DNA from: Candidatus Woesearchaeota archaeon
GTDB lineage: Archaea > Nanobdellota > Nanobdellia > Pacearchaeales > GW2011-AR1
NCBI GenBank assembly: GCA_964443535.1
Contig: CAYUCQ010000002.1
Span: 1-34,044, forward strand
Direction of reading: 5' to 3'
Length of the DNA: 34,044 bases
Made by a program: the position numbers and the translations under genes. Shown piece by piece: positions 5,127 through 17,520 of the stretch. The notes under the pieces are model-generated. The model worked only from the letters and a program-made list of their open reading frames with translations, made no database searches and was not told the DNA's origin. Position 1 is the stretch's first letter, and the number at the start of each line of letters is the position of its first letter.

Positions 5127-8100
5127 CTACTTTTTTTCTTGCTTGGGTTTTTCTTTCACGACTGATTTTTCTTTTGCAACTATAATTTTAGTACTATGTA
5201 TGAATTTGCGCAATTCTTTTTCTTTGACTTTGAAAGGCGAGTGAAGCAAGGGCCTGAATTCAATAAAGTAAGGAGAGCCTTTATTGTAATCAGAGCACTC
5301 TACCATGCCTAATCCTGTAGACAATCTTGAAAGCAGAGTGCTTATCTTTGAGCTGTGCCTGTCTCTCGCTCTTTTAATGTCTCCCTCATATCTTGTTCTC
5401 ATCTGTATTTGAGTTCCTATATTTCCCCTTATAGCCCCTTTGAAGTCTGTCAGCACTTGAGAAATCATTAGCAATCCTATGCCCCATTTTCTAAACTCTC
5501 TGACTGCCTGCTCAAGCTTGACATAAGCTCTGCTGCCGCCATATTTAGGCAATAATCTATGAACTTCGTCAAGTACAATCAAATGCCTCAAAGAGCTGCT
5601 CTCTGACAATCTCGCCCTGTAAATTCTATCAAGACTATTTTCAATAAACATATCCAAGACTTTAGGAGACAATTTATCCAGCTTGAATATTGTTAATCCT
5701 GATTTCTTCAAATAATAAACAACATCCAAATTCATGGTGTTTTTATTAATTTCAATAACTCTGGCATTAAACGCCATTGGCTTGCTCAAGGAAAACTTCT
5801 TGTAAAGCGAGCGCATTCCTTTATCATTATTTTTTTCAAGGAAGCCTGTCCATTGTCCTGTAGGATCAAAAACAATAATGCTCTGTCCTGCTCTCTTCTT
5901 TAATAATTCCTCAACAGCAACCATTCCTGCAACAGTCTTTCCTGCGCCTGTTCCTCCTGCAATTAAAGTGTGCCTGTTCAACTGCGTATGGTCAAGATAA
6001 GTCTTGACTCCAGAGTCTGCAACATGCCCTACATAAGCGAAATGCGACTTAGGAAGCAAAGCAAAGTCCGGAAATACATATATGCTCTTCTTCTTCATTT
6101 CTTCTACTTTTTTCTCAAACAACCTGCGCCTCAAATAAGCAAAATAATAAATTAATATTATAACTAATATAACAACAAACAAGCCTGCCAAAATAAAAGG
6201 AAGATAAACAACAGAAAAACTATTTGCTAAAAAACTGGAAAGCTTCCCAAACCCGCTTATGAAAGGGCTAAATAGCTGGCCTCTTCCAACTTTGAATGCC
6301 TGCTTAATCAGCACAACACTTTCAGAATCGTAGGATGCGCTTACAATCAATTCATAATCCCCAAAATTAACATTATTTGGAATATTCAGCTTTTTTTCCA
6401 GCGATAAAGAATCTTCAATTTTCAAATTCTCTGTTTCGCTTGAAACTATATTGCCTTCATTATCAACAATCACATAGAGAAATTCCACATCATAACTATC
6501 AAGTCTGCCAAGATTAAAAACAGACATTTTGAACTCCAGCAAATCCCCTGGAAGAAGAACATATTTTTCAATAATCGCCTCCCCATTTAATAATTTCTCT
6601 TCCAAGCCCTTGACTATAATTCTTACTGGAAGAACATAAGCTGCTTCATTAGCACTCACACCAGAGCCTGCGACAGAAGTGACAAATCCGTTCTCTAATA
6701 TATTTTCGCCATCTTCAGCATCCTCTCCAAAGAAATATATATTTCCAACATAAACACCCTTATCTAATCCAAATATTCTGATTCTAACATCTCTTGTCTG
6801 CAATGCTGGTATTTCCACACTATTATTTACAGAAATTATATTAGCCAAGGATTTATCAATTAAAACATCTATCTTCGTCAAAATATTTATCTTTAAATCG
6901 TTTTCATCCAGGCTTGTAATAAGAATGTTTTCAAAAACTTCTTCTCCGATATTCATCACTCTTTCTATAGTGTTTACGCTAACATGAAAATTTCCTTTTT
7001 CAAGAACAAGCTTGGGCTTAGCCACAGAGGTCGTTCCGCTACCACTGCTCCCGCTAGAGCTGCTGCTCGTGCTAGCAGCAACAGCAGTAGAAATGCTAAA
7101 TGTCCTGCTATGAGTATAATTCTTATTTCCCATAGTGTCATTTGCATAAACACTAAGAGTATAACTGCCGTCGGCTATGCTGGAATTAGTGCGATTAAAC
7201 ACTGCCCCGAACAAGCTTGTATGATCAGCGCTATAAAACATGCTAAAATTATTTATCCCTCCATTTAGGCTATATTGCACGCTTCCATTCTCATTTAAAG
7301 AGACATTAATATTAACAGAAGAGGCGCCAATGCTTTGCCCATCTGTAGGAGCATTTATAGTAACTATAGGCGCAATACTATCGTTATTAAAACTAAATAT
7401 CAAATTTCTATTAGTAGTCATATTCCATGATTGAGATAATACTTCTCCAGGCAAAGTAGCATTAAATGTATAATTAGAATAATAATTAGTTTCTACTCCT
7501 CCGCTGTCATTTTGCGTGTATTCCAGCAATGCTTGTTTCACAATTCTTCCATCGCTTCCTGTTAAGACAGAAAATCGCACGAAATTATTAATGTCAAAAG
7601 CGCTTACATTCGCATTGGGTGCTGCAGAATTGTTTGCATAGCTTGCATTGACTTCCAAATGCCAGTGCACATTTAAAGTTCCATTAGCTCCTGCATTCCA
7701 TGTTTTGTCACTAAATGTAACATTTGTAAGATTCCAAATACCTCCATTTGCAGCGCCTGCCACAAGAAAATCATCTGCACTTGAAGACAATGAGCTATCA
7801 CTAAAACTAAAATTATTATTGTTTCCTGAAATATAAATATTACTAGTACCAACAGCACCGCCTCTTATAACATGGTTGCTAAAACTATTATTGTTAGTGC
7901 CTGTATTCTCGCCAAAAAGAACACCTACGCCATTAGCACCTATATTATGAATAAAATTGCCTATAAATTGATTATTTAAAGATCTAGCCAGATTAACGCC
8001 ATTGCCGCTGCCAAAAGCAGTAAGATTATTATGATATATTCTATTATTAAAAGCGGTAGTAGAGTCTAACTCTATCACATGCGAAGATGAACCATAAGTT

Positions 8101-10037
8101 GAGATGTTATTATGACTAATGTTATTATTAGAACTCGCGCCAGAAATAAGAATACCGTCTGTGCTTGAGCCACTGGTTACAATTCTATTATGTATTACAG
8201 TATTATTGCTTGAAGAATCAAATATCAATCCTCTCGTAGCAGTAACATTAATAAAATTACTAATTATCATGTTACTCGATGATAAAAAATAAATGCCTGC
8301 ATTGCCTGCGCCTGTTCCGAAACTTAATATAGTGTTATTAGTTATATTTGTATACCTTGTAGCAAGGTTATCACTTATACCGACCGAGTTAGTCCCATTA
8401 ACTATTATAGTATTATTAAATATAGTAGTATTGAACGCGTTTGATAAGAAAATAGCATCGTCTGTATTTCCTGTAGTATTTCCTTCAAAGATAACAAGAT
8501 CTCTTATCATGCTAAAGTTTGCCGCAGTAACATATATTGCATAGGATGATTCAGAAGAATTAGTTCCGTTAATAGAATAGTTTATTGTATATCCCTGCCC
8601 ATTAAGAGTTATATTGTTAGCAGTTATATTAAAGCAAGTTCCGCTGCTTGAATTTACATCTTGTGTTAATGTATAAATTGAATTTGAAGTATTAAGGACC
8701 TGGCATGAGGTAACGCTAGGGTCAAATATATAATCAAAATCAACATCTCCTCCTCTAACTCTTAAATCAAAAGTATCCTGGCTGCTCATCAAATCATTCA
8801 ATAAAACCCTATATCTATCATCTGCAAATACTCCCCTGAATTCTGCAATCATATCATCTCCATTTTCCTCGTAAACTTCAATATCTGCGCTAGAACTGCT
8901 TCTCGCGAAGATAGTAATATCTTTGTTTGTAGTTAAATTAGTCTCAAAACTAATTCTAATATAATGTCCGTCAGGAATAGTTGCATAATCTCCATCTTTT
9001 GCTCTTATTTTTTCATAAACATCTTCAACAAAAACCTTATTTTCATCAAGATGCTCTGCATCAGTTATCAAAATTATCTCAAATGTCTGCTCACTCAAAT
9101 GAGGAACTATCCATGCTATATAATCATAAATTCCATCTGCGTCATTATCAAGAATATTTTCAGCAGGAATATATTTGCTTTCCTCTTTCCAATAAATTCT
9201 TACGCTTTCCGAATCACTAATGCCTATCTCTTCAGAAAGTTCTGTAAATGCAAGAACATTATCATAATGAATCTCGTCAGGCCCGATAATCTTTACTCGC
9301 TTTCCGTTCTCTAAATCTTCTTCAATAGAATAAGGTGCTTCAGTGTAATACTCTATTTCAACTTCAGATACAGGCTCCCTGACATCAAAATGAGTAACCT
9401 CCTGTTCAGTCGTTTCTTCAGAAACAGCAAGTCCTGTGAATCTCAAAAATCCCCTGCCAAAGCCCTGTTTATTTTCGTAAGAAGTATCAACAAAAACATT
9501 GCCTTCGTCATCAGTCAAAGTTTCATTTATTAATACATTAATTTCTTCATCAACTTGCTTAATATGAACAACAGATAAATTCTTTGCTATTAAAGGAATC
9601 GCGATTGAAAGATTTGAAGCTTTGGAAAGCACAATCTTTTTATTCCATTTTACAGGCATTCCAAGAATCGCCCCGTATTGAGATGTTTTTATATTGGCAT
9701 TAACTCCAGACTTATCATCAAAAACATCTATCTCTTTTATTAGAACATTATTTTCAATATAATCTAAAGTATTATCCCCATTTATCCCAATTTTTTCAGT
9801 TTTTTCAACAACAACACTGCCAGTTATTTCAAAAGGTGTGGCAAAAAGCAAAAGTAGGACAATGAAAAAGAGGCATAGGGTAAAAATAAGGAAAAATATA
9901 TTTTTCCTTTCATGAAAATATCCCTTCTTAGGCTGTCCAAGATAACTTGTAACAACTTTTCCATCTATCCTCTTATTCTCATACAAGTAAGGCCCGAATA
10001 CCTTCCCTCCTTTTTTTATATATTTCTCATAAACCAA
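5127..10037 (-). CDS. Giant surface beta-helix protein fused to a C-terminal HerA/FtsK-like (DUF87-type) P-loop ATPase
   Basis: 1636 aa, TTG start. N-terminal TM, beta-helix, Ser-rich linker, second TM followed by RRR, then RHTLIAGGTGAGKT (Walker A), VFDPTGQW, LIVLDEVHR (Walker B), REFRKWGIGLLMISQ. Confidence 0.85.
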   Translation of the reverse strand: MVYEKYIKKGGKVFGPYLYENKRIDGKVVTSYLGQPKKGYFHERKNIFFLIFTLCLFFIVLLLLFATPFEITGSVVVEKTEKIGINGDNTLDYIENNVLIKEIDVFDDKSGVNANIKTSQYGAILGMPVKWNKKIVLSKASNLSIAIPLIAKNLSVVHIKQVDEEINVLINETLTDDEGNVFVDTSYENKQGFGRGFLRFTGLAVSEETTEQEVTHFDVREPVSEVEIEYYTEAPYSIEEDLENGKRVKIIGPDEIHYDNVLAFTELSEEIGISDSESVRIYWKEESKYIPAENILDNDADGIYDYIAWIVPHLSEQTFEIILITDAEHLDENKVFVEDVYEKIRAKDGDYATIPDGHYIRISFETNLTTNKDITIFARSSSSADIEVYEENGDDMIAEFRGVFADDRYRVLLNDLMSSQDTFDLRVRGGDVDFDYIFDPSVTSCQVLNTSNSIYTLTQDVNSSSGTCFNITANNITLNGQGYTINYSINGTNSSESSYAIYVTAANFSMIRDLVIFEGNTTGNTDDAIFLSNAFNTTIFNNTIIVNGTNSVGISDNLATRYTNITNNTILSFGTGAGNAGIYFLSSSNMIISNFINVTATRGLIFDSSSNNTVIHNRIVTSGSSTDGILISGASSNNNISHNNISTYGSSSHVIELDSTTAFNNRIYHNNLTAFGSGNGVNLARSLNNQFIGNFIHNIGANGVGVLFGENTGTNNNSFSNHVIRGGAVGTSNIYISGNNNNFSFSDSSLSSSADDFLVAGAANGGIWNLTNVTFSDKTWNAGANGTLNVHWHLEVNASYANNSAAPNANVSAFDINNFVRFSVLTGSDGRIVKQALLEYTQNDSGGVETNYYSNYTFNATLPGEVLSQSWNMTTNRNLIFSFNNDSIAPIVTINAPTDGQSIGASSVNINVSLNENGSVQYSLNGGINNFSMFYSADHTSLFGAVFNRTNSSIADGSYTLSVYANDTMGNKNYTHSRTFSISTAVAASTSSSSSGSSGSGTTSVAKPKLVLEKGNFHVSVNTIERVMNIGEEVFENILITSLDENDLKINILTKIDVLIDKSLANIISVNNSVEIPALQTRDVRIRIFGLDKGVYVGNIYFFGEDAEDGENILENGFVTSVAGSGVSANEAAYVLPVRIIVKGLEEKLLNGEAIIEKYVLLPGDLLEFKMSVFNLGRLDSYDVEFLYVIVDNEGNIVSSETENLKIEDSLSLEKKLNIPNNVNFGDYELIVSASYDSESVVLIKQAFKVGRGQLFSPFISGFGKLSSFLANSFSVVYLPFILAGLFVVILVIILIYYFAYLRRRLFEKKVEEMKKKSIYVFPDFALLPKSHFAYVGHVADSGVKTYLDHTQLNRHTLIAGGTGAGKTVAGMVAVEELLKKRAGQSIIVFDPTGQWTGFLEKNNDKGMRSLYKKFSLSKPMAFNARVIEINKNTMNLDVVYYLKKSGLTIFKLDKLSPKVLDMFIENSLDRIYRARLSESSSLRHLIVLDEVHRLLPKYGGSRAYVKLEQAVREFRKWGIGLLMISQVLTDFKGAIRGNIGTQIQMRTRYEGDIKRARDRHSSKISTLLSRLSTGLGMVECSDYNKGSPYFIEFRPLLHSPFKVKEKELRKFIHSTKIIVAKEKSVVKEKPKQEKK

Positions 10038-10178: not shown

Positions 10179-10193
10179 AAGAAGCTTTAAAAA
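10179..10193 (+). promoter_or_regulatory. BRE/TATA promoter of the tRNA-Glu 5' half
   Basis: AAGAAGC-TTTAAAAA; TATA starts 31 nt before G1. Confidence 0.6.
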
Positions 10194-10216
10194 AGATGCA
10201 TCCTATCTATAAAAAT

Positions 10217-10254
10217 GCCTCTGTAGTCTAGTGGTCAAGGACACGGCCCTTTCG
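10217..10254 (+). tRNA. tRNA-Glu(UUC) 5' half (positions 1-37) of a split or disrupted gene
   Basis: GCCTCTG-TA-GTCT-AGTGGTCA-AGGAC-A-CGGCC-CT-TTC-G. No T-arm follows. The acceptor strand pairs with CAGGGGC at 16303-16309. Confidence 0.85.
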
Positions 10255-10257
10255 CGG
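10246..10257 (+). repeat. Left copy of the 12-bp core direct repeat (attL-like)
   Basis: GCCCTTTCGCGG, identical to 16267-16278 and spanning the 7-nt anticodon loop. Confidence 0.85.
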
Positions 10258-10271
10258 GGGAGAACAAAATT

Positions 10272-10324
10272 CCCCGTCTTTGAAGGGCGGAGAAACCAAG
10301 GCGAAAAGACCTTAAAGGGTGGAG
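10272..10324. repeat. Two imperfect 21-bp palindromes of consensus CTCCRCCCTT-N-AAGGGYGGAG at the left island end
   Basis: 10272-10292 CCCCGTCTTTGAAGGGCGGAG; 10304-10324 AAAAGACCTTAAAGGGTGGAG (left arm degenerate). Confidence 0.7.
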
Positions 10325-10340
10325 AGCATAGAAAAAACAT

Positions 10341-10441
10341 GCCCGATTAGTCTAGTGGTCAAGGACGCGGCCCTTTCGAGATAGTTTCGAAAGAAAGATC
10401 AAAGAACGGCCGAAACCCGGGTTCGAATCCCGGATCGGGCA
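10341..10441 (+). tRNA. Complete tRNA-Glu(UUC) with a 28-nt BHB intron at 37/38 (10379-10406)
   Basis: Acceptor GCCCGAT/ATCGGGC, anticodon TTC at 10375-10377, T-arm CCGGG-TTCGAAT-CCCGG. BHB: helix CTTT/AAAG, bulges CG|A and AA|C, outer helix GAT/ATC. Followed by a T6 tract. Confidence 0.95.
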
Positions 10442-10457
10442 TTTTTCTATTTCTAGA

Positions 10458-10754
10458 TTAAATAGAAATCCGATAATTCATTATATAATCCCATCCCTTG
10501 ACCACAGCGATTATCAGAATAACTGCGAGCAAGCCACCTCCGAAAATAGTGACAATTCCTATAATAATTTTAAAAGGAGTTGGTATCGCTTCGTCCACTA
10601 TTTTTTCTGCTGCATCTTCAGTAACTTCTTTTAATACTTCTGGGTTAGTGGGATCTTTCATAACTTGTGTAATAACTGAAACAGCCCATAAAAGAAAGAG
10701 AATTGATCCTATTGCTGTCAAGATTCCACCGATAGTGATTGCTTTCTTTACCAT
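10458..10754 (-). CDS. Small membrane protein with two TM segments, unknown function
   Basis: 98 aa, two hydrophobic segments flanking an acidic helix. Confidence 0.7.
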   Translation of the reverse strand: MVKKAITIGGILTAIGSILFLLWAVSVITQVMKDPTNPEVLKEVTEDAAEKIVDEAIPTPFKIIIGIVTIFGGGLLAVILIIAVVKGWDYIMNYRISI

Positions 10755-10840
10755 CTTATAATTTTGTTATAATAAGTAGTATCTAAACATTATTGTGATA
10801 AAACCAATAGATATAAATTGTTGAAAATTACTAGAAAGCT

Positions 10841-11212
10841 ATGAAATTCAAAGAGGTACCAAAAGATAAAGTAGAAATTATCGGCTCAATTATAAACGGG
10901 TCTCCAAATAGCGTAAATGGAAGTCCTTGGCTCTCGGTTTATCCATGTGATCCACAAGATATTGTCGACAACCCTGTTCTTTTAAATAAATCAGTCGCGG
11001 CAGGCATTGTTGCCAGCGGAGCCATTGTTCTAGGTTTACCTATTCCAATTTATTCTTATGATATAGTTAGGATGGATGGAAGTATTTTCGATATAGACAG
11101 ACATCTCCTTTCAACCTCTGGTTCGGTTATATTAAGAAGAAGAGAAATAGATAAAAGCCTTGCAGAACATCATTCTTCAGATATTCCAGATTATTACAAA
11201 TTTTCAAAATAG
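10841..11212 (+). CDS. Hypothetical protein
   Basis: 123 aa ATG-led ORF with TATA-like ATATAAAT about 30 nt upstream. Confidence 0.6.
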   Translation: MKFKEVPKDKVEIIGSIINGSPNSVNGSPWLSVYPCDPQDIVDNPVLLNKSVAAGIVASGAIVLGLPIPIYSYDIVRMDGSIFDIDRHLLSTSGSVILRRREIDKSLAEHHSSDIPDYYKFSK

Positions 11213-11260
11213 TTATGAGCAATAAGCAATAATTATAAGGCTATATAAATTAAAATTTAT

Positions 11261-12454
11261 ATGGTAGGATGCGATTATTGCGAAAAGCCAACTGACGGTT
11301 ATGCTCACAAATGCAAGTTCTGTGGGCAAGTTCATTGTTCGGAACATTTGTTGCCAGAGTCGCATGATTGCAGGGGATTAGAATATCGCAAACAAAAAAA
11401 TTCTGAAAGATGGGGCAGGGCAGTAACCGGCCATTCTATTAACACTAAATATAATATTGATGAAGAGTCCGTTTATGAAAAGCCAACAAAAAACGTTAAA
11501 CAACACCATAAAAAACAGAAGTTTTCTGATAAGTTAAAGGGCTATGCTATCACAAAATATGAAAGTCTAAGATATTGGTTAAGAAAGAGAGAGCATCATC
11601 GATATGATTTTGAAGGGAGATCAAGCTATCTAATTACTACGATTCTAATTCTTGCGACGGCTATTGTAGGTGTTGCTATCTTCTACTCTAATGCAGAAAA
11701 ATTGAATGAGATTGACTTCTGGATCATAAAACTCGGAGGAGTATTAATCTTAGTTTCTCTGTTTTTTGCAATTAAATATGGGTGGAGATTTGGCAAGGAA
11801 ATGATTAATATCTTTAAGAGACAAAAAAATTGGTTTAGATATTTAGTTATAATTTTGATAGTTATTTTACTTTGGCAAGGTTATACGCATAAGGACAATG
11901 TTTTGAATCCTGTCTTTGAAACTTATAATAAAACTAACTTTACCTTGCTGATGCCTATCGGGATAAGTAATTTTAGCTTAGGCGAGAGTAATAGCGATGT
12001 TTCGTTTGATTATTCATCAGGCCAAGATAGTAAAAAAACATTCGATTTTGATATTCCTTCATCTAGTAAATCAGCTGGAGATCTGGCTGAAATAGAAAGT
12101 AGAATCTTAGTGTTAGTAAATGAAGAAAGAGCCAGAAATGGAGCTCATGCCTTAAGGACTAATAACAATCTTGATAACCTTGCACAGAAGCATAGTGATA
12201 GGATGATATCAGAAGATTTCTTTGAACATAGTCATTACAACGTAGGAGAAAATATTGGAGAAGTTCCTCTCCACTATAATGTTTTAGGATGTGGTTCAAC
12301 TTACTCAAATGATGATATGGCTGAATGTATGGTTACAGGTTGGATAGAAAGTCCAGGGCATCACATGAATATGATAGACAGAAGTTATGGGTCAACAGGT
12401 ATTGGCGTTGCGTGCGATAGCTCAAAATGTAGGGGCACGCAAATGTTCAGTTAG
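11261..12454 (+). CDS. AN1-type zinc finger + 3 TM + CAP (SCP/PR-1) domain protein
   Basis: N-terminal CDYC...CKFCGQVHCSEHLLPESHDC. C-terminal CAP motifs LVNEERARNG, AQKHSDRM, GENI, GWIESPGHHMNM, GIGV. Confidence 0.85.
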   Translation: MVGCDYCEKPTDGYAHKCKFCGQVHCSEHLLPESHDCRGLEYRKQKNSERWGRAVTGHSINTKYNIDEESVYEKPTKNVKQHHKKQKFSDKLKGYAITKYESLRYWLRKREHHRYDFEGRSSYLITTILILATAIVGVAIFYSNAEKLNEIDFWIIKLGGVLILVSLFFAIKYGWRFGKEMINIFKRQKNWFRYLVIILIVILLWQGYTHKDNVLNPVFETYNKTNFTLLMPIGISNFSLGESNSDVSFDYSSGQDSKKTFDFDIPSSSKSAGDLAEIESRILVLVNEERARNGAHALRTNNNLDNLAQKHSDRMISEDFFEHSHYNVGENIGEVPLHYNVLGCGSTYSNDDMAECMVTGWIESPGHHMNMIDRSYGSTGIGVACDSSKCRGTQMFS

Positions 12455-13610
12455 TTCCCTTACAACTATGTTCGTGCTCAAGTAACTGATTGAATTGTTC
12501 AAATTGCTCTCCGCAATGTTTACACTTTCCTTCTCTTGCGACGGCATCAGTATAGAGAAAATTAAAGTGCATTTCTTCTGTCAAAATAGAAGTCATCTGT
12601 TTCTCTAATTGTTCGTAGTGATCTATTGCTGAAAGAGCGTCTTTTTTGTCTTTTGATTTAAGAGTTAGGTTAGATAGGCCAATCGCCCTTAGTCTTTTAC
12701 TCAACGATGGATGAGATGAAAAGAATTTAGTCTTTTCATTGTCTACAACCGTTTGTTTAATATTTTTATGATCTTCTTTCATGTAGGCTTTGTGAATGCT
12801 GTCATATACATTGACAAACTGTCTTCCTTCTGAAAGAAAGTGGGCAATCGAGTTATATCCTACTTCTTCGAAATATAAAGTATAAGCAGAGTAATTTACT
12901 AAACCTCTACCAAAAATTTCTTTACTTGAAAAATGAGTTGCGATATAATCGGCCCTATATTCTATCTGTCTAGAATAAATAGAAATGATAACTCTGAAAA
13001 TAAAAGAGTAGGATTTTGCAAATCCGCTTATGAAAAGTCCAATAACTGCAAGTTCGGCCAAAGGGATTACATTCCACCATGCTTTTCCAAAATTTGAAGA
13101 TTTTTCTAAGGATATCTGTATTTTAGCTAATAGGGATCCAACGATGGTATCATTTCCGTATAAATGTCCAAATTCGTGAGCAAGAATTGATTTAAATTCT
13201 TCAGAAGAAATCGATCTTAATCCTACAATTCCAATACCCAATTTTCTTTTAAAGAGGCCAGTAACATAAATTTCATCTGATGGCAAAACGTGAATTTCAT
13301 CCGGCATTCTTACTCCGATATTTTGAGAAACTTCTCTAATCGCTTTGATCAACTTAGGAAATTTATCCTGATGAATTGCATAACCTCTATCTTTAGATTT
13401 AACTGAAATAGCAACAATAAGAGGAATTACGCCTAATCCTACAAATATCCACCCAAAGATATTTGTTCCAGAAAATTCCCACCATTCACCGACAAAAATG
13501 CCTATGCGGAAGAGGGCATAATATACTGAAATAAAAAGAGCAACAGTAATCAATAAGCTAAGATAAATTCTAAACTGAATCGTAAAAGGTATTTTTATCT
13601 TTCTTTGCAT
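12447..13610 (-). CDS. M48 (HtpX/Ste24-like) membrane zinc metalloprotease with C-terminal C2H2-like zinc finger
   Basis: SILAHEFGH, YSRQIEYRAD, SSHPSLSKRL, TM helices; C-terminal CKHC...HEHSC. Confidence 0.85.
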   Translation of the reverse strand: MQRKIKIPFTIQFRIYLSLLITVALFISVYYALFRIGIFVGEWWEFSGTNIFGWIFVGLGVIPLIVAISVKSKDRGYAIHQDKFPKLIKAIREVSQNIGVRMPDEIHVLPSDEIYVTGLFKRKLGIGIVGLRSISSEEFKSILAHEFGHLYGNDTIVGSLLAKIQISLEKSSNFGKAWWNVIPLAELAVIGLFISGFAKSYSFIFRVIISIYSRQIEYRADYIATHFSSKEIFGRGLVNYSAYTLYFEEVGYNSIAHFLSEGRQFVNVYDSIHKAYMKEDHKNIKQTVVDNEKTKFFSSHPSLSKRLRAIGLSNLTLKSKDKKDALSAIDHYEQLEKQMTSILTEEMHFNFLYTDAVAREGKCKHCGEQFEQFNQLLEHEHSCKGTN

Positions 13611-13725
13611 AGTAATAAGTCTTTTTTTAATTATAAATATCTTATCTTTATTTTTACAGGTTATCGCTCGTATTAATACTCTGGCAACAAAGCATTTTTA
13701 ACATTCAAATTCCAATTTTATAGGT

Positions 13726-14358
13726 ATGCAATCAACACATTCAATAACAATCCAACAAAGAGGAGATAAAATACATAGATACGAAAGCAAAAATCAGAAT
13801 GATTTTGTGATTGAAGAAGACATTGCCGGATTAGACGCAAATGTTCTTGTTGATTTAGCTGAAAGTGAAGAATTTAAGCATAATATTAGAGAACAAATAA
13901 GTATTGGCGTACGGAAATTTTATACAACAAATGTGGCGCTTGGAGAAGCAAGACACGTTTTAGTGAAGAAAAGAAAATATAAACATCAAGATGCAACAGA
14001 CAAACTCCAAAATATTCTTAAAGAGTTTAACATAACTAAGATAAACCATAATAGGGAGAGCAATGATTTAGGAAATAATTGGGTAGATATTGTGAAGAAA
14101 CAAACACACATCAAAAAATTTAGAACCTTCCCGACCGATTGCAGAATTCTCGCCAATTTATTCAAACAAGCAAAAGTTAACCTCTATTTTACAGAAGATC
14201 AAGATATAGAAAAAGCACTAAATATTCTAAAGGTTCCGATTAGAATAAGAATTGTAGGAGAGGCTTCACAGCTAGATAGTTTTGAAATTAAAAGATTCTT
14301 TCAGGAGCAATTTAAGGAAAAGCGCAAAGCTTTTCATAAATCTCGGAAGCGTCGTTAA
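13726..14358 (+). CDS. PIN-domain (VapC-like) nuclease
   Basis: Acidic PIN residues in LDANVLVD, ALGEARH, PTDCRIL, FTEDQD. Confidence 0.7.
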   Translation: MQSTHSITIQQRGDKIHRYESKNQNDFVIEEDIAGLDANVLVDLAESEEFKHNIREQISIGVRKFYTTNVALGEARHVLVKKRKYKHQDATDKLQNILKEFNITKINHNRESNDLGNNWVDIVKKQTHIKKFRTFPTDCRILANLFKQAKVNLYFTEDQDIEKALNILKVPIRIRIVGEASQLDSFEIKRFFQEQFKEKRKAFHKSRKRR

Positions 14359-14617
14359 TATTTCCGTTTGATTTCTTTAGAGCTTCTTGCCATAATTCGT
14401 TTCTTACTTCCTTAACTTCATCCATCGTTTTTACTCTTTGTTTCTTAAGAACTGAAAGAGCGTATGCTGCTTCAAATTTTGAAGTGCTCATTTGACTATT
14501 CATTGCCATTTGAGCTTTAGTTGCTAACTCTTGAAATTGCTGTTTAAATCTTTCTCCAGTTAGCTCTATGTTTTTAAATATATTATCTGATTCTTTCATT
14601 TTCTCTGTGTCTTGCAT
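14312..14617 (-). CDS. Hypothetical helical protein, convergent with and overlapping the PIN gene
   Basis: 101 aa ATG-led ORF; 47-bp 3' overlap with the PIN ORF. Confidence 0.6.
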   Translation of the reverse strand: MQDTEKMKESDNIFKNIELTGERFKQQFQELATKAQMAMNSQMSTSKFEAAYALSVLKKQRVKTMDEVKEVRNELWQEALKKSNGNINDASEIYEKLCAFP

Positions 14618-14821
14618 TTTATTTCCAGTTAAATTTAGGGCTTTACAAGGTTTAAAAAACTACCTAAAGAACAGAAAGTAACACAATTATTCAAATAAAC
14701 TAAGTCCTTTTTCATCATGATAACTACTAGTAAAAGTACTATATAAATCTTATTTGTATTGACAACTACAAATCAGTGTCGAAACCAAAAACTATTTCAA
14801 GTTTAAATTATAAGTCATATA

Positions 14822-14974
14822 ATGATAGCAAACTGTGCTGGTTGCGAGTATGGGTTTTGGGAAGCCTATGAATGGCAAACGAGAGGTTTTGATGTCATAC
14901 TGGATGGAATGGATGAGAGAAAATATGTCTTCATTAGAGTTCTTGACAAAAGCGGAAGAATAGTCTTGGAGTAA
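14822..14974 (+). CDS. Small 50-aa CxxC protein, possibly first gene of the WYL operon
   Basis: Manual translation MIANCAGCEYGFWEAYEWQTRGFDVILDGMDERKYVFIRVLDKSGRIVLE. Stop lies 2 nt before the next ATG, and its 3' end supplies a GGAG RBS. Confidence 0.5.
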   Translation: MIANCAGCEYGFWEAYEWQTRGFDVILDGMDERKYVFIRVLDKSGRIVLE

Positions 14975-14976
14975 AA

Positions 14977-15216
14977 ATGAGCGAAAAATGCAAGAATTGC
15001 CGTAGAGAGTTTAATTCTGGTATATGGATTTCTCCGCAATTTGCAGATGAAAAAGCCTTATTATTCTGTTCAGAAAAATGTAAAAAAGAATATCTCAAAA
15101 TGAAGCTTGAAAGAATAAAGGTTAATTATCCAAAGTTTCATGAAAAAATAATGCAAACCTCTAAAAATTGGAAAGAAGGTGTATTTTGGAAAGGGAAGGA
15201 TAAAAATGAAAGATAA
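14977..15216 (+). CDS. Small zinc-finger protein (TRASH/MYM-like CxxC...FCSxxC)
   Basis: CKNC...FCSEKC, 79 aa. Confidence 0.65.
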   Translation: MSEKCKNCRREFNSGIWISPQFADEKALLFCSEKCKKEYLKMKLERIKVNYPKFHEKIMQTSKNWKEGVFWKGKDKNER

Positions 15217-15715
15217 ATTCCAATTAACAAAAGAAGAAACAGAAGCCCTATATACAATAATTAAGGAGTACGAAAAGGACGCTCCCGAAAGCGACAAAGA
15301 ATATTATGACGATTACTATGATGAATACAAGACTCCGATAAAAAAGAGAACAATAAAGTCTATTCTAAATAAAATTACTAATTTATTGCCTGAAGAACAA
15401 AAAGAAGAAATAGACAAGGATTTTCTGAGGCAAAAATATCACACATTTAATAACGAAGTCAATGAAAGAGTTTATTCTATAATTGAAAAGGCATTTAATC
15501 AATTAAAGACCATTGAAATAGAGTATTTTAATATGGAAAGCGCAAAGTTCAGCAAAAGAAAGCTTGATGTTTATCATAAATCAAGAAAGTATGTTATTGG
15601 ATACTGTCATTTAAGAAAGGACATAAGAAAATTCAGAACACATAGAATCGCCTCTGCCAAATTGACAAGAGATAGCTATAAAATTCCGGAGGATTTTGAT
15701 AAGAATAGGTATTAA
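15206..15715 (+). CDS. WYL-domain protein without an obvious HTH
   Basis: IEIEYFN...KRKLDVY...YVIGYCHLRKDIRKFRTHRI. Start moved to the ATG at 15206, which follows a GGAAGG RBS. Confidence 0.85.
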   Translation: MKDKFQLTKEETEALYTIIKEYEKDAPESDKEYYDDYYDEYKTPIKKRTIKSILNKITNLLPEEQKEEIDKDFLRQKYHTFNNEVNERVYSIIEKAFNQLKTIEIEYFNMESAKFSKRKLDVYHKSRKYVIGYCHLRKDIRKFRTHRIASAKLTRDSYKIPEDFDKNRY

Positions 15716-15716
15716 A

Positions 15717-16076
15717 ATGGCAAACGATAACGGCTTAGTTGATGAGCTTGAAAAGCTTCAGACATTAAAGAAAGATATAGAACGGAAAGAAGAAGAACTA
15801 AAGAGCAAAATCATTGAGCTAGCACAAGAGAAAAATACAGATTTGTTATTTGGTTCACATAAAAAGTGTTCAGTGAAGGAATACATTAAAGTGGTTTATC
15901 CAGAAGATAAGACTCTTTTTGTCAATTTAATTAAAAATAAGGGACTTTATGACAGATTCTCCTCACTTAACTATCTTAAATTAAGTCCTGCAATTATTAA
16001 AGGCGAGATTGATAAAGATATAGCAAGTTTAACTAGACAAGAAAAAGCCTTCAGGCTTTCCTTGAAAGAGATATAG
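15717..16076 (+). CDS. Coiled-coil hypothetical protein
   Basis: MANDNGLVDELEKLQ..., ATG 1 nt after the WYL stop. From memory it resembles C-terminal extensions of some RecB-like PD-(D/E)xK proteins (unverified). Confidence 0.65.
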   Translation: MANDNGLVDELEKLQTLKKDIERKEEELKSKIIELAQEKNTDLLFGSHKKCSVKEYIKVVYPEDKTLFVNLIKNKGLYDRFSSLNYLKLSPAIIKGEIDKDIASLTRQEKAFRLSLKEI

Positions 16077-16195
16077 AAGAACTAAAAGGAAAATTATATT
16101 AACCTCCTCGTCTTCAACTGATCATGCTCACCAAAAAGTGGGGGAAAAGACTAAAGAAATAGGAATGTCCGATTGACCGCAAAATGACGCAAGTG

Positions 16196-16216
16196 CTCCA
16201 CCCTTCAAGGGCGGAG
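16196..16216. repeat. 21-bp palindrome at the right island end
   Basis: CTCCACCCTT-C-AAGGGCGGAG (one mismatch). A further half-site CTCCGCCCTT lies at 16263-16272. Confidence 0.8.
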
Positions 16217-16266
16217 AAAAGGGCGTGCTCAGCCCAAATAGGGAGGAGATGCAGGTATAGGGCTCC

Positions 16267-16278
16267 GCCCTTTCGCGG
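16267..16278 (+). repeat. Right copy of the 12-bp core direct repeat (attR-like)
   Basis: GCCCTTTCGCGG. Confidence 0.85.
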
Positions 16279-16310
16279 CCGTAACCCGGGTTCAAATCCC
16301 GGCAGGGGCA
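16276..16310 (+). tRNA. tRNA-Glu 3' half (positions 38-73)
   Basis: C-GGCCG-TAAC-CCGGG-TTCAAAT-CCCGG-CAGGGGC-A. No D-arm upstream; complements the 5' half at 10217. Confidence 0.85.
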
Positions 16311-16366
16311 TTCATTAAATCAAAGATTTCATACCACTGACGGTATGAGAACAGAGTTTGAATAAA

Positions 16367-16379
16367 CCGGCAGGGGCAT
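16367..16379 (+). repeat. 13-bp duplication of the tRNA-Glu 3' end
   Basis: CCGGCAGGGGCAT, identical to 16299-16311. Confidence 0.75.
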
Positions 16380-16429
16380 ATCACGCCACTCATAGAAAGA
16401 GATAAATAGTTTAATTATCACGATATTTT

Positions 16430-17371
16430 ATGAATTCCCAAGAAATCTTGCTAAGAGAATTGATAAAGAACGGCTATTCCATAGAAAACGGCATAAAAGT
16501 CTGGGACTTGTCAAAAAGATGCTTCAGATATGTCAATTTAGACATGGCAAAAGCATTTCTCAAACTGCAAGAGCATCCAAGATATAAAGCAACAATTAAT
16601 GACATAGAAATTAACCTTTTAAAAGAACACGTCCCAAAACTGCAAATTAATGCAAGAAAAGATCAATTTAATCTTATAGACATGAGCTGTACAGAAGGCA
16701 CAAAAGCAAAAGTAATAATTAACTCTCTTCCTAAAGACATAAACTTAAGATATTGCCCTGTAAGTGTCAGTGAATATTTAACAGAATTGGCATTAAAAAA
16801 CATAAAAAAAGAAAAGCTTCAAAATGTAGTTGACTATGCTCCAAAAGTTACAGAAAATTTCCTAAATTTAGATAACATTGGAGCTGTCTTGAGAAACAAC
16901 AAATATCAGAAAAATATAATCCTGCTTCTCAATTCATTTTTAGCAAGCTTTGAAATTAATGACTATTTGTTTAGGCTAAGCCAGTCAATGCTTCCAGGAG
17001 ATATTTTAATAATAGGAAATGGCATAAGAACAGGTCCAAGATTTGCAAACTTAGAAACATATCAGCATCCAATATTTAATGACTGGCTGATTCACATACC
17101 TCTTCAGCTTGGCTTTAAGAAAGATGAAGTAGAGTATAATGCGCGCTTTACAAACAATAGGCTTGAAGTATATTACAAGATAAAAAAAGACAAGACATTC
17201 CTATATGAGAAAAGAAAAATAGAGCTAAGAAAAAACGACGAGATAATTGTAGCATTCCAGCACAAGCTTTACGAAAATGAATTAAAAGAATTCTGCGACA
17301 TGTATTTTGACAGCGTAGAACTAAAGAAAGATTCTGAAAGTGAATATGCTATTGTCTTATGCAAAAGATAA
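16430..17371 (+). CDS. EgtD-like (histidine N-alpha-methyltransferase family) SAM-fold protein
   Basis: 313 aa. YCPVSVSEYL, LLLNSFLASFE and SMLPGDILIIG fit the family pattern; motif I is degenerate (DMSCTEGTK). Confidence 0.6.
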   Translation: MNSQEILLRELIKNGYSIENGIKVWDLSKRCFRYVNLDMAKAFLKLQEHPRYKATINDIEINLLKEHVPKLQINARKDQFNLIDMSCTEGTKAKVIINSLPKDINLRYCPVSVSEYLTELALKNIKKEKLQNVVDYAPKVTENFLNLDNIGAVLRNNKYQKNIILLLNSFLASFEINDYLFRLSQSMLPGDILIIGNGIRTGPRFANLETYQHPIFNDWLIHIPLQLGFKKDEVEYNARFTNNRLEVYYKIKKDKTFLYEKRKIELRKNDEIIVAFQHKLYENELKEFCDMYFDSVELKKDSESEYAIVLCKR

Positions 17372-17397: not shown

Positions 17398-17520
17398 TGA
17401 TCCTGCCCGGATTTGAACCGGGGACCCCCGCCTTTCTTAGCTTTTCAGCGTGAAAATAAAGCTCTAACGAGCCATAATCTTATAAGAGCGGTGCTCTAAA
17501 CCGGGCTGAGCTACAGGATC
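17398..17520 (-). tRNA. tRNA-Ile(UAU) with a 47-nt intron at 37/38 (17434-17480)
   Basis: Acceptor GATCCTG/CAGGATC-A, D-arm GCTC/GAGC, CCGCT-CT-TAT-A|intron|A-GGCGG, T-arm CCCGG-TTCAAAT-CCGGG; central helix CTTA/TAAG. Confidence 0.92.

What the first reader, a model, noticed from the sequence alone, without database searches (positions are those of the whole stretch)
10341..10441. The island supplies a replacement tRNA-Glu whose intron interrupts the integration core
Seen: 83 bp inside the left end lies a complete same-anticodon tRNA with a candidate promoter of its own (GAAAAGAC-CTTAAAG, 30 nt upstream). Its DNA reads GCCCTTTCG-[28-nt intron]-CGG, so the 12-bp core exists only after splicing. 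Established: tRNA introns have been proposed to protect genes from integrative elements. Inference: a disrupt-and-replace strategy. The element breaks the host gene, complements it with a copy that cannot be re-targeted, and makes imprecise loss lethal if no other Glu(UUC) gene exists.
Basis: partly seen in the sequence, partly recalled or inferred. Interest (0 to 1): 0.88.

Follow-up and report, generated by a model that had tools for sequence, protein, structure and literature searches.

The report
Mobile island splits and replaces tRNA-Glu
A 6-kb inserted island has cut this small archaeon's only glutamate tRNA(UUC) gene in two at the anticodon loop and carries its own complete, intron-containing copy just inside its left end, an archaeal counterpart of the "tRNA-dependent lysogeny" recently shown in mycobacteriophages.

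Summary
An intron-bearing tRNA-Glu(UUC) lies at 10341-10441, with a 28-nt intron at position 37/38. It sits 83 bp inside a 6,009-bp insertion. That insertion splits a second tRNA-Glu(UUC) into a 5' part (10217-10257) and a 3' part (16267-16311), which share an exact 12-bp repeat.

Comparison with other genomes supports "disrupt and replace". Two other genomes, G041 and G042, have the same layout: host 5' half, conserved 83-bp arm, the same foreign tRNA-Glu (97% identical), cargo, conserved right arm, host 3' half. The host halves differ between the three genomes. G041's island encodes a tyrosine integrase. The inferred attP core is an inverted repeat around the 7-nt anticodon loop.

The window's copy has no integrase. 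It is therefore decayed or non-autonomous.

G041's replacement tRNA has no intron and keeps the core, so the intron is not needed for the strategy. Its role as a shield is plausible but untested. About a third of this genome's tRNAs have introns anyway.

The closest known system is tRNA-dependent lysogeny in actinobacteriophages (PMC10865867). This is a new archaeal variant of that kind.

The parts
10184..10195 (+). Promoter-like box (GCTTTAAAAAAG) of the resident tRNA-Glu, about 22 nt upstream of the 5' half
   Evidence: Same position and type as the boxes upstream of other tRNA genes of the genome. Similar to the tRNA-Glu upstream regions of G001 and G002.
10217..10257 (+). 5' part (positions 1-40) of the resident, disrupted tRNA-Glu(UUC); this is attL
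   Evidence: Sequence. Pairs with 16279-16311 into a full cloverleaf. 96% identical to an intact metagenomic tRNA-Glu, L043.
10246..10257 (+). Left copy of the 12-bp core GCCCTTTCGCGG (anticodon loop CTTTCGC plus flanking stem bases)
   Evidence: 2 matches, 0.02 expected.
10258..10340 (+). Island left arm (P' arm), 83 bp. Holds the C' half-site GGGGGAG, the boxes AAGGGCGGAG (10283) and AAGGGTGGAG (10315), and the promoter-like GAAAAGACCTTAAAG (10303-10317)
   Evidence: The left end of the island, arm plus tRNA (island 1-188), is 98% identical in G042. The arm is 82% identical in G041/G409. Alignment A1. Box enrichment. Promoter spacing.
10341..10441 (+). Island-borne replacement tRNA-Glu(UUC): 5' exon 10341-10378, 28-nt intron 10379-10406 at position 37/38, 3' exon 10407-10441; followed by a run of five T
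   Evidence: Rfam 57.3 bits. ARAGORN with introns allowed. Pair 27:43 is C-G here, T-A in G042 and A-T in G041. A bulge-helix-bulge can be drawn at -11.4 kcal/mol against an MFE of -14.4.
10458..10754 (-). Cargo: 98-aa predicted membrane protein
   Evidence: ORF. No significant Pfam or PHROG family.
10841..11212 (+). Cargo: 123-aa protein, no family
11261..12454 (+). Cargo: 397-aa protein with zf-AN1, a membrane segment and a CAP/SCP domain
   Evidence: Pfam CAP 2.5e-14, zf-AN1 3.4e-6.
12447..13610 (-). Cargo: 387-aa M48-family metallopeptidase
   Evidence: Pfam Peptidase_M48 2e-15. Among 25 other genomes searched, the only close homologue is in G005 (74%), in an unrelated context.
13726..14358 (+). 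Cargo: 210-aa PIN-domain-like protein
   Evidence: Pfam PIN 1e-5, 26.6 bits.
14312..14617 (-). Cargo: 101-aa protein, no family
14977..15216 (+). Cargo: 79-aa zinc-ribbon protein. A homologue (67%) lies in the island next to G003's tRNA-Glu
15179..15715 (+). Cargo: 178-aa WYL-domain protein
   Evidence: Pfam WYL 4e-11.
15696..16076 (+). Cargo: 126-aa protein. A homologue (67%) lies on G003 contig C10
16141..16266 (+). Island right arm (P arm). Holds GAAAAGACTAAAG followed by TCCGATTGACC (a degenerate promoter and 5' start of the island-type tRNA), the palindrome CTCCACCCTT-C-AAGGGCGGAG (16196-16216), and GGTATAGGGCTCC, which leads into the core
   Evidence: Conserved with G041 (alignment A2; 78%). 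Repeats D2, D6 and I1. Boxes.
16267..16311 (+). Right core copy (16267-16278) and the 3' part (positions 29-73) of the resident tRNA-Glu(UUC); this is attR
16367..16379 (+). Older 13-nt repeat of the tRNA 3' end (CCGGCAGGGGCAT), 55 nt beyond the gene. This matches the att type used by conventional members of the same integrase family
   Evidence: repeat D10. The same scar lies upstream of the methyltransferase gene in G001, and also occurs in G003 and G004. In G190, 13-nt repeats bracket integrase-bearing islands.

Best explanation
The 6,009 bp between the two 12-bp cores (10258-16266) are an integrated genetic island. It belongs to a family that inserts by tyrosine-recombinase site-specific recombination into the anticodon loop of tRNA-Glu(UUC).

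The inferred attP core is CTCCGCC-CTTTCGC-GGGGGAG. In the sister element of G041 it is CTCCGCC-CTTTCGC-GGCGGAG, a perfect inverted repeat. This mimics the host anticodon arm, CACGGCC-CTTTCGC-GGCCGTA. The two share only 12 bp, so integration does not rebuild the host gene. It leaves a 5' part and a 3' part instead.

The island makes up for the loss with a complete tRNA-Glu(UUC) gene of foreign type. That gene lies 83 bp inside attL, in the same orientation as the disrupted gene. It has a promoter-like box of its own and also lies downstream of the host gene's promoter.

In the window and in G042 this replacement gene has a canonical-position 28-nt intron. The intron removes the right half-site and the last base of the overlap from the DNA.

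Shown:
- the anatomy;
- its recurrence in three genomes with different host tRNAs;
- an integrase in one of the three islands;
- structure-preserving change in the replacement tRNA;
- no second full-length Glu(UUC) gene in any of the three assemblies.

Inferred:
- the recombination mechanism and the crossover region;
- that the replacement tRNA is expressed, spliced and essential;
- that the window's copy, which has no integrase, is a decayed or non-autonomous derivative;
- that the intron keeps the replacement gene from being a substrate of the family's integrase. I give that last step about 0.3.
For: 1. Anatomy in the window.

2. The same architecture in G041 and G042. They were found through the replacement tRNA's 3' end. 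Of 12 genome-contig hits, 3 were tRNA-Glu and 9 were unrelated Thermoplasmata tRNA-Arg.
- In G041 the cores lie at C19:126132, 126256 and 132098, giving an island of 5,954 bp.
- In G042 the 5' half, arm and tRNA lie on contig C54, and the core with the 3' half lies at the start of contig C66.

3. Alignments A1 and A2.
- The arms and the replacement tRNA are conserved.
- The host acceptor stems differ: GCCTCTG/CAGGGGC, GCCCGAA/TTCGGGC and GCCCCTG/CAGGGGC.
- The element's stem is always GCCCGAT/ATCGGGC.
- Element tRNAs are 97% identical to each other and 82-93% identical to their hosts' split genes.

4. G042's methyltransferase neighbour is only 38% identical to the window's. Yet the left end of its island (arm plus tRNA, island positions 1-188) is 98% identical to the window's. 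I read this as horizontal spread.

5. G041's island encodes a 469-aa protein that matches Phage_integrase (E 2.7e-7, 31.0 bits, cut-off 27.1).
- Its family occurs in 93 of 301 genomes of the order.
- In 16 of 30 loci it lies within 1.5 kb of an intact tRNA gene: 4 Glu-UUC, plus a fifth locus with a Glu-UUC 3' end cut by the contig start, 6 Asp, 3 Gly, 1 Glu-CUC, 1 Ala, 1 Ser.
- Short 13-15-nt repeats of the tRNA 3' end lie downstream in two of four loci examined more widely, G190 and G263.

6. Pair 27:43 of the replacement tRNA is C-G, T-A and A-T in the three genomes.

7. The 10-bp box AAGGGCGGAG (1 mismatch allowed) occurs 7 times in the window against 0.54 expected. Five of the seven lie in the two arms.

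8. Among the 8 same-genus genomes whose Glu(UUC) gene I examined, none has the island-type acceptor stem, and each has the native gene at this locus. Seven are intronless. G003 has an unrelated 92-nt intron.

9. The only full-length Glu(UUC)-like match in G000, G041 and G042 is the island's gene. The other matches are halves or tRNA-Glu(CUC).

10. A splicing endonuclease domain is present (G000:C7, 88 bits).

11. Among 162 tRNA predictions in 1.38 Mb of held sequence, only these island tRNAs have a 5'-half copy within 400 nt upstream. All are at the same offset.
Against: - No integrase or remnant of one lies in the window's island (Pfam and PHROGs on 9 ORFs). PF00589 over the whole assembly finds only a Xer-like fragment beside ribosomal genes on contig C11. 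tblastn with the G041 integrase gives a best E of 6.4. None was found in G042 either.
- The cargo of the window's island shares nothing with G041's island.
- No empty site of this strain and no circular form was seen. All 15 of 15 metagenome hits to the 5' half were intact genes of other organisms. The Logan contigs gave only joints with sides of 45 nt or fewer (most 20-32), which fit other organisms' tRNA genes rather than an empty site of this strain.
- The full-length left arm occurs in only 2 of 401 sampled genomes of the order.
- All genomes are metagenome assemblies. G000 is 85% complete and holds only 25-28 tRNA genes, so a second Glu(UUC) gene cannot be excluded.
- There are no RNA data.
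- The bulge-helix-bulge fold is 3 kcal/mol above the predicted minimum.
- G041's replacement tRNA has no intron.
Confidence: 0.78

Rival explanations
1. The disrupt-and-replace reading holds, but the intron is a neutral passenger. The replacement tRNA simply carries one of the many introns common in these archaea, and the intron has no role in shielding the gene from integrases.
For: - ARAGORN predicts introns in 10 of the genome's 28 tRNAs.
- Native tRNA-Glu(UUC) genes of G003 (92-nt intron) and G035 (45-nt intron) also have introns at 37/38.
- G041's island of the same family carries an intronless replacement gene with an intact 12-bp core.
- Intron-bearing tRNA-Glu genes in G003 and G035 still carry islands bounded by repeats of the 3' end or 3' exon. 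An intron therefore gives no protection against the more common 3'-end-targeting members of the integrase family.
Against: - The intron sits exactly in the family's own core. It removes the right half-site and changes the last base of the 7-bp overlap.
- It is kept with a single substitution in two different hosts.
- In the circular form an intronless copy would lie 83 bp from attP in direct orientation and could recombine with it. This last point is inference.
Confidence: 0.5
2. The two host parts are a working split tRNA gene of the Nanoarchaeum type. They would be transcribed separately, paired through complementary flanks and trans-spliced, so the host gene would not be dead.
For: - Both parts are undecayed and form a perfect cloverleaf together.
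- The bases after the 5' part (GGGGGAG; GGCGGAG in G041) are complementary to those before the 3' part (CTCCGCC).
- A further GAAGGGCGGAG in the left arm is complementary to CTCCGCCCTTT at the right junction.
- A promoter-like box lies in the right arm.
Against: - The two parts overlap by 12 nt. That is the mark of recombination, not of known split genes.
- The paired flanks leave a symmetric internal loop of 7 by 7 nt. I could draw no bulge-helix-bulge at either junction, and in the cofold the 5' junction lies inside a hairpin.
- An intact gene for the same isoacceptor lies 83 bp away.
- The box in the right arm has the wrong spacing.
- The complementarity is what the inverted core sites of an attP give in any case.
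Confidence: 0.04
3. The intron-bearing gene is the native gene of this locus. The two halves would be leftovers of an old duplication or of ordinary integration events, so nothing was replaced.
For: - tRNA-Glu is a hotspot with several kinds of scar (16367-16379).
- G003 has an intron-bearing tRNA-Glu at the native locus.
Against: - G003's gene has the genus-type acceptor stem and an unrelated 92-nt intron.
- No genus relative has the GCCCGAT/ATCGGGC gene.
- That gene is found only together with flanking halves, in 3 of 3 genomes.
- It is 93-96% identical to the native tRNA-Glu in L056, whose record title names a Woesearchaeota MAG, but only 86% identical to the window's split gene.
- The split gene is 96% identical to an intact gene in a relative, L043.
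Confidence: 0.03
4. The arrangement is an assembly chimera of a metagenome bin.
For: - The genome is a 47-contig bin.
- The Logan contigs did not bridge the junctions in the pieces listed.
Against: - The same left junction (5' half, arm, tRNA) is assembled independently in G042 at 98% identity, and in G041 on a 157-kb contig that spans the whole island.
- A 12-bp repeat is too short to mislead an assembler.
Confidence: 0.02

Closest known systems
tRNA-dependent lysogeny of actinobacteriophages such as Fionnbharth, Cluster L phages and Gaia (Guerrero-Bustamante & Hatfull 2024, PMC10865867). I read the abstract, the Discussion and passages.
   Same: - A tyrosine-integrase element targets an attB that overlaps a host tRNA gene.
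- Only a short common core is shared (about 10 bp there, 12 bp here), so no functional tRNA is rebuilt.
[quoted passage not shown]
- The host has a minimal tRNA set.
   Different: - The host is an archaeon of the DPANN group.
- The element is a roughly 6-kb island without recognisable virion genes.
- The replacement gene lies 83 bp from the core, in tandem behind the disrupted gene's promoter.
- In two of three genomes it has a spliceosome-independent archaeal intron in the core.
- The window's copy has no integrase.
- Nothing here is tested at the bench. The paper does not mention archaea (0 occurrences).
Caldiarchaeum tRNA-Thr locus and model of tRNA gene disruption (Sugahara et al. 2012, PMC3293823). 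I read the abstract, part 1 of the Discussion and passages.
   Same: - A 5' tRNA fragment, then inserted DNA, then an intron-bearing tRNA of the same isoacceptor, in an archaeon.
- The authors suggest that an intron brought by an element could keep other elements out.
   Different: - There the intron-bearing gene is the gene rebuilt at the junction, with the intron lying within attP. The fragment is a displaced duplicate, so the gene is never lost.
- Here the gene is truly cut at the anticodon loop, and a separate complete gene is supplied.
Hypothesis that introns and splitting protect tRNA genes from integrating elements (Randau & Soll 2008, PMC2475316). Not read; known from the citing passages in PMC3293823.
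   Same: An intron lies exactly in an integration core.
   Different: The hypothesis concerns host genes defending themselves. Here the protected gene would be the element's own.
Conventional tRNA-targeting islands and pNOB8-type archaeal integrative elements (review PMC8371274 and Islander PMC4383910). I saw passages of the review, and only the search listing with the start of the abstract for Islander.
   Same: - Tyrosine integrase.
- A tRNA gene as target.
- The anticodon loop as a 7-bp overlap flanked by the stem as half-sites.
- The integrase gene stays intact inside the element (G041).
   Different: Those elements rebuild the target gene. The review states that an intact tRNA gene is reconstituted after integration. 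This family does not.
Split tRNA genes of Nanoarchaeum equitans (Randau et al. 2005). Not read; the reference appears and the details are recalled.
   Same: Separate 5' and 3' halves divided near position 37/38, with complementary GC-rich flanks, in the wider Nanoarchaeota group.
   Different: - The halves overlap by 12 nt.
- No bulge-helix-bulge can be drawn.
- An intact gene for the same isoacceptor is present.

Membership tests
tRNA-dependent lysogeny / integration (PMC10865867) | [quoted passage not shown] | tested here: met
   The identity is 12 bp, extending imperfectly to 20 of 25. Rfam finds no tRNA at 10217-10340 or at 16141-16311. The acceptor strands at the junctions do not pair. 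The same holds in G041 and G042.
tRNA-dependent lysogeny / integration (PMC10865867) | [quoted passage not shown] | tested here: met
   tRNA-Glu(UUC) at 10341-10441. The same gene is present in G041 and G042.
tRNA-dependent lysogeny / integration (PMC10865867) | The element encodes the tyrosine integrase that carries out the reaction | tested here: not met
   Not met for the window's island. Met for the sister island in G041 (PF00589, 31.0 bits). The window's copy can therefore be filed only as a derivative of such an element.
tRNA-dependent lysogeny / integration (PMC10865867) | The disrupted host tRNA is single-copy and essential, so the element's tRNA is required for survival | tested here: inconclusive
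   No other full-length Glu(UUC) gene was found in G000, G041 or G042. G000 is 85% complete with 25-28 tRNA genes found. Essentiality cannot be tested with these tools.
Conventional tRNA-gene island (target regenerated, displaced fragment at the far end) | An intact chimeric target gene at one junction | tested here: not met
   Neither junction carries an intact gene.
SSV-type integration (integrase gene partitioned by attP) | N- and C-terminal integrase parts at the two borders, overlapping the att sites | tested here: not met
   Only a 65-aa ORF with no family crosses attR. No ORF runs from the left arm. G041's integrase gene is intact.
Split tRNA gene (trans-spliced halves) | Complementary flanks that build a bulge-helix-bulge at the junction, and no intact gene for the isoacceptor | tested here: not met
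   Complementary flanks are present (7 nt and 11 nt). They leave an internal loop of 7 by 7 nt, and the 5' junction lies inside a hairpin. An intact gene is present.
Canonical archaeal tRNA intron | Position 37/38, a bulge-helix-bulge motif, and a splicing endonuclease in the genome | tested here: inconclusive
   The position is met. An EndA domain is present (88 bits). An hBHBh' fold can be drawn: central helix CUUU/AAAG, bulges CG|A and AA|C, inner helix GAU/AUC, at -11.4 kcal/mol. The predicted minimum (-14.4) is another hairpin, and the ensemble gives the central helix about 1%. There are no RNA data.

The most novel reading that the evidence does not exclude
The intron is the element's own safeguard. 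By interrupting the 12-bp core it would make the replacement gene invisible to the family's integrase. That would prevent recombination between attP and the gene 83 bp away, and prevent a second insertion that would kill the host.

The intron-less G041 island and the intron-bearing islands of G000 and G042 would then be a natural matched pair for testing the Randau-Soll idea that tRNA introns block integration.

The same event also shows how split tRNA genes can be born. Insertion at the anticodon loop leaves a 5' half and a 3' half whose new flanks are complementary, because they are the inverted half-sites of attP. This happens in the same broad lineage as Nanoarchaeum.
Probability: 0.25. 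Interest if true: 0.85.

Novelty: new variant of a known kind. Interest (0 to 1): 0.7.

Why it matters
- It extends [quoted passage not shown] from actinobacteriophages (shown at the bench in 2024) to archaea and to small non-viral islands. A 2021 review of archaeal tyrosine recombinases still describes tRNA integration as restoring the gene.
- It offers a concrete system for testing whether a tRNA intron blocks an integrase: one integrase (G041), one core, and natural targets with and without the intron.
- It gives a plain mechanism by which tRNA genes become halves with complementary flanks. That bears on the old question of where split tRNA genes come from.
- A host left with an integrase-less island that holds what appears to be its only Glu(UUC) gene would be locked to that island.

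Tried and rejected
- **Read laying on four DNA runs.** Only Logan contigs at low depth were available. The joints across the island have sides of 45 nt or fewer (most 20-32), as expected for other organisms' intact tRNA-Glu genes. This gives no verdict on an empty site or on the junctions.
- **Metagenome scan with the 5' half.** All 15 of 15 hits were intact intronless tRNA-Glu genes of relatives. None had this strain's acceptor stem. The pattern spans the exon junction, so intron-bearing genes were excluded by design.
- **Viral contigs.** No relative of the WYL protein. No match to the replacement tRNA's 3' end or to the left-arm pattern.
- **Closest integrase homologue.** G111 (46% identity, one internal stop) has no tRNA within about 9 kb. 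G084 and G193 likewise have none. I therefore found no second example for another isotype.
- **Rfam at relaxed threshold on the right arm.** Only chance-level matches.
- **Composition.** The island does not differ from its flanks.
- **Sigma-70 promoter scan.** Not meaningful for an archaeon.
- **Inversion between inverted tRNA copies.** Considered as the origin of the halves and rejected, because it would give two intact hybrid genes rather than halves.
- **A giant intron.** I considered a splice from the host 5' part to the island tRNA's 3' exon. I rejected it because the acceptor strands do not pair at 3 of 7 positions.
- **Literature.** Three searches (listings only, apart from the papers named above) showed no report of an archaeal element that disrupts and replaces a tRNA gene. 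Supplements were not opened. The supplementary figures and tables of PMC10865867 may list further systems.
Full report
**What is in the window**

Rfam's tRNA model matches 10341-10441 (+) at 57.3 bits, with a 28-nt surplus in the anticodon loop. The default run had missed it. The DNA reads GCCCTTTCG, then the intron (10379-10406), then CGG.

The 12-mer GCCCTTTCGCGG occurs exactly twice, at 10246-10257 and 16267-16278. Chance expectation is 0.02, and 0 of 100 shuffles reached two matches.

The left copy closes a 5' tRNA-Glu(UUC) part that begins at 10217, behind a normal tRNA promoter box. The right copy opens a 3' part that ends at 16311. The two parts together make a faultless cloverleaf.

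**The 6,009 bp in between**

The region holds nine ORFs:
- a 98-aa predicted membrane protein;
- a 123-aa protein with no family;
- a protein with zf-AN1, a membrane segment and a CAP domain;
- an M48 peptidase;
- a PIN-like protein;
- a 101-aa protein with no family;
- a 79-aa zinc-ribbon protein;
- a WYL-domain protein;
- a 126-aa protein.

None is an integrase. The Phage_integrase model over the whole assembly finds only a Xer-like C-terminal fragment beside ribosomal protein genes on contig C11. Base composition does not set the region apart from its flanks.

The M48 gene has a close homologue in only one of the 25 other genomes searched, G005, and there in an unrelated place. The WYL gene has a weak match in only one other genome, G003. 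The content is therefore accessory.

**Which gene is the resident one**

In six same-genus genomes a tRNA-Glu(UUC) lies about 100 nt upstream of the homologue of the methyltransferase gene at 16430, facing away from it. Five are from the species set (G003, G004, G006, G008, G009). The sixth, the metagenome contig L043, has the gene about 250 nt upstream. In two outgroups, G035 and G040, it follows tRNA-Ile(UAU).

The two closest relatives by that methyltransferase are G001 and G002 (72% and 71% identity). They instead have the tRNA next to a giant-protein gene and in the window's orientation. G001 keeps a 13-nt copy of the tRNA's 3' end upstream of the methyltransferase gene, in the same orientation as the window's repeat at 16367-16379. 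The split gene therefore lies where this clade has its native gene.

The split gene's sequence is 96% identical to an intact gene on L043. It is only 86% identical to the intron-bearing gene. The intron-bearing gene has an acceptor stem, GCCCGAT/ATCGGGC, that none of the 8 genus relatives examined has.

**The decisive comparison**

I scanned the species genome collection for the last 22 nt of the intron-bearing gene. This gave 12 loci. Nine are unrelated tRNA-Arg genes of Thermoplasmata. One is a native tRNA-Glu in a record titled as a Woesearchaeota MAG (L056), 93-96% identical to the island gene. Two, G041 and G042, repeat the window's architecture.

G041 is in the same family as the window's genome but in another genus; it reappears as G409. 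On a 157-kb contig it has, in order:
1. the methyltransferase homologue;
2. a host 5' part ending in the core;
3. an 83-bp arm, 82% identical to the window's;
4. the same foreign tRNA-Glu, without an intron and with an intact core;
5. about 5.7 kb of cargo;
6. a right arm, 78% identical;
7. the core and the host 3' part.

The island measures 5,954 bp.

In G042 the 5' part, the arm and the tRNA lie on contig C54; the arm and tRNA together are 98% identical to the window's. The tRNA has the same 28-nt intron with one substitution. The core with the 3' part opens another contig, C66.

The three hosts' split genes have three different acceptor stems, each internally complementary. G042's methyltransferase is only 38% identical to the window's. 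A nearly identical island end in clearly different hosts means horizontal spread.

Pair 27:43 of the island tRNA is C-G, T-A and A-T in the three genomes. That is what selection for a working tRNA gives.

**The recombinase and the site**

G041's island encodes a 469-aa protein that passes Pfam's Phage_integrase threshold (31.0 bits against 27.1, E 2.7e-7). By eye it shows an RSPNE motif, an RHS motif and a YY near the C-terminus. Reading these as the catalytic motifs of tyrosine recombinases rests on recall.

Relatives of this protein occur in 93 of 301 sampled genomes of the order. In 16 of 30 loci they lie within 1.5 kb of an intact tRNA gene. I looked at four Glu(UUC) cases more widely. In G190 the integrase follows an intact tRNA, and 13-nt repeats of the tRNA's 3' end bound the islands. 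In G263 a 15-nt repeat does so. That is the same kind of scar as 16367-16379 in the window.

Ordinary members of the family thus leave the gene intact. The G041 type has moved to the anticodon loop.

Putting the window's right junction before its left junction gives an inferred attP core of CTCCGCC-CTTTCGC-GGGGGAG. In G041 it is CTCCGCC-CTTTCGC-GGCGGAG, a perfect inverted repeat around the 7-nt anticodon loop. It faces CACGGCC-CTTTCGC-GGCCGTA in the host. This is the textbook layout of a tyrosine-recombinase core site (passages of PMC8371274).

A 10-bp box, AAGGGCGGAG, occurs seven times in the window with one mismatch allowed, against 0.54 expected. Five of the seven lie in the two arms. These are candidate protein-binding sites.

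The right arm also holds what looks like a decayed promoter and 5' start of the island-type tRNA. This suggests that the family descends from an element whose attP once rebuilt the gene.

**How it most likely works**

Integration cuts the host gene, because only 12 bp are shared. The island's own gene supplies tRNA-Glu(UUC).

That gene has a box, AAAAGACCTTAAAG, at the distance where this genome's tRNA genes have their promoter boxes. It lies behind the host gene's promoter with no T-run in between, and it ends in a run of five T. Expression from both promoters is my inference.

Carrying a whole gene frees the element from having to match the host's acceptor stem. A half-and-half chimera made at the anticodon loop would have to match it. 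The three different host stems fit that idea, which is again inference.

In each of the three assemblies the island's gene is the only full-length Glu(UUC) gene found. A splicing endonuclease is present. Since the window's island has no integrase, the host seems locked to it.

**The intron**

The intron removes the right half-site and the seventh base of the overlap from the DNA, so the gene should be a poor substrate. A bulge-helix-bulge can be drawn at -11.4 kcal/mol, but it is not the predicted minimum of -14.4.

Several things count against a special role:
- G041's copy has no intron.
- ARAGORN predicts introns in 10 of this genome's 28 tRNAs.
- Intron-bearing native tRNA-Glu genes still carry 3'-end islands in G003 and G035.

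I give the shield reading about 0.3, and about 0.5 to the intron being a neutral passenger.

**Rivals**

- *Working split tRNA.* The flanks of the halves are complementary, as attP half-sites must be. However, they leave a 7-by-7 internal loop and no bulge-helix-bulge. The halves overlap by 12 nt, and an intact gene stands beside them.
- *Native-gene reading.* The relatives refute it.
- *Assembly artefact.* Three independent assemblies argue against it.
- *Rarity.* Only 2 of 401 sampled genomes of the order hold the full left arm. Only the three islands' tRNAs, among 162 tRNA predictions in the sequence I held, have an upstream 5'-half copy. The family is therefore rare.

**Comparison with what is known**

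The closest system is tRNA-dependent lysogeny (PMC10865867; I read the abstract, the Discussion and passages). It has a core of about 10 bp, no rebuilt tRNA, and a phage tRNA of the same isotype that lysogens need to survive. That paper does not mention archaea.

Sugahara et al. (PMC3293823) described a 5' fragment, an insertion and an intron-bearing tRNA-Thr in Caldiarchaeum. They suggested that an intron brought by an element might bar other elements. There the gene is rebuilt at the junction.

Three literature searches listed no archaeal case of disruption with replacement.

I therefore rate this a new variant of a known kind. The integrase criterion is not met by the window's own copy.

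**Limits**

- All genomes are metagenome bins.
- No empty site, circular form or RNA was seen.
- G042's island is not contiguous.
- The cargo of the three islands differs.

Noticed in passing
window 16312-16379; L043, L046, L047, L053, L055; L013 2549; L014 13128; L038 9863: Many tRNA-Glu(UUC) genes of this group are followed by a 40-100-nt spacer and a 12-13-nt repeat of their own 3' end (CCGGCAGGRGCAT). The window's spacer is about 38 of 43 identical to that of the metagenome contig L043. In G190, 13-nt repeats of this kind bound integrase-bearing islands; in G263 a 15-nt repeat of the T-arm/acceptor region does so. The short versions look like scars left after the interior was lost.
   Followed up: partly
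window 10217-16430 compared with L013, L014, L017, L018, L040 and L015, L016, L038, L039: The tRNA-Glu gene faces away from the methyltransferase gene in five genus relatives. In G000, G001 and G002 it points towards that gene and sits beside a giant-protein gene. An inversion at this hotspot therefore occurred in one lineage. Integrase-driven inversions between tRNA genes are described for Thermococcales in PMC5495485, of which I saw only the search listing.
   Followed up: partly
window 17398-17520 (-): tRNA-Ile with anticodon UAU and a 47-nt intron. It is conserved next to this locus in all relatives examined, with introns of 43-107 nt. By my recollection a UAU isoleucine tRNA is unusual for archaea.
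   Followed up: no
L029 (G035) 6674-6708 and 10426-10546: G035's intron-bearing tRNA-Glu is followed 3.7 kb downstream by a repeat that begins exactly at the first base of the 3' exon. Between them lie toxin-antitoxin-like genes and a tRNA-Leu, and no integrase.
   Followed up: partly
L014 (G003) 9823-9989: G003's native tRNA-Glu has a 92-nt intron that starts with CGGGG, as does the sequence after the window's left core. It ends with GAAGAA, like the window's 28-nt intron. I could not tell whether this reflects shared origin or the needs of the splice motif.
   Followed up: no
window 10258-10277; L068 about 7145-7165: The first 20 nt of the left arm form a small hairpin whose stem changes in step between the window (GGGG/CCCC) and G041 (GGCG/CGCC). 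This could be a conserved inverted repeat or an RNA hairpin of unknown role.
   Followed up: no
L056 3260-3334: A record titled as a Woesearchaeota MAG has a native tRNA-Glu(UUC), near its tRNA-Ile(UAU), that is 93-96% identical to the island-borne gene. It is a possible donor lineage.
   Followed up: partly
G000:C16:9054-9269; L020 (G009:C9) 2966-3135 and 3252-3950; L111 (G041:C3): tRNA-Glu(CUC) carries long introns (70-143 nt) in several of these genomes. In G009 and G041 it is directly followed by a member or fragment of the same integrase family.
   Followed up: no
window 276-5036 and 5127-10037 (-): Two adjacent ORFs of 1,586 and 1,636 aa. Their homologues in relatives are diverged (30-51% identity).
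   Followed up: no
window 10315-10324: One copy of the 10-bp arm box (AAGGGTGGAG) overlaps the promoter-like box of the replacement tRNA. Whatever binds the box could therefore also affect expression of the tRNA.
   Followed up: no
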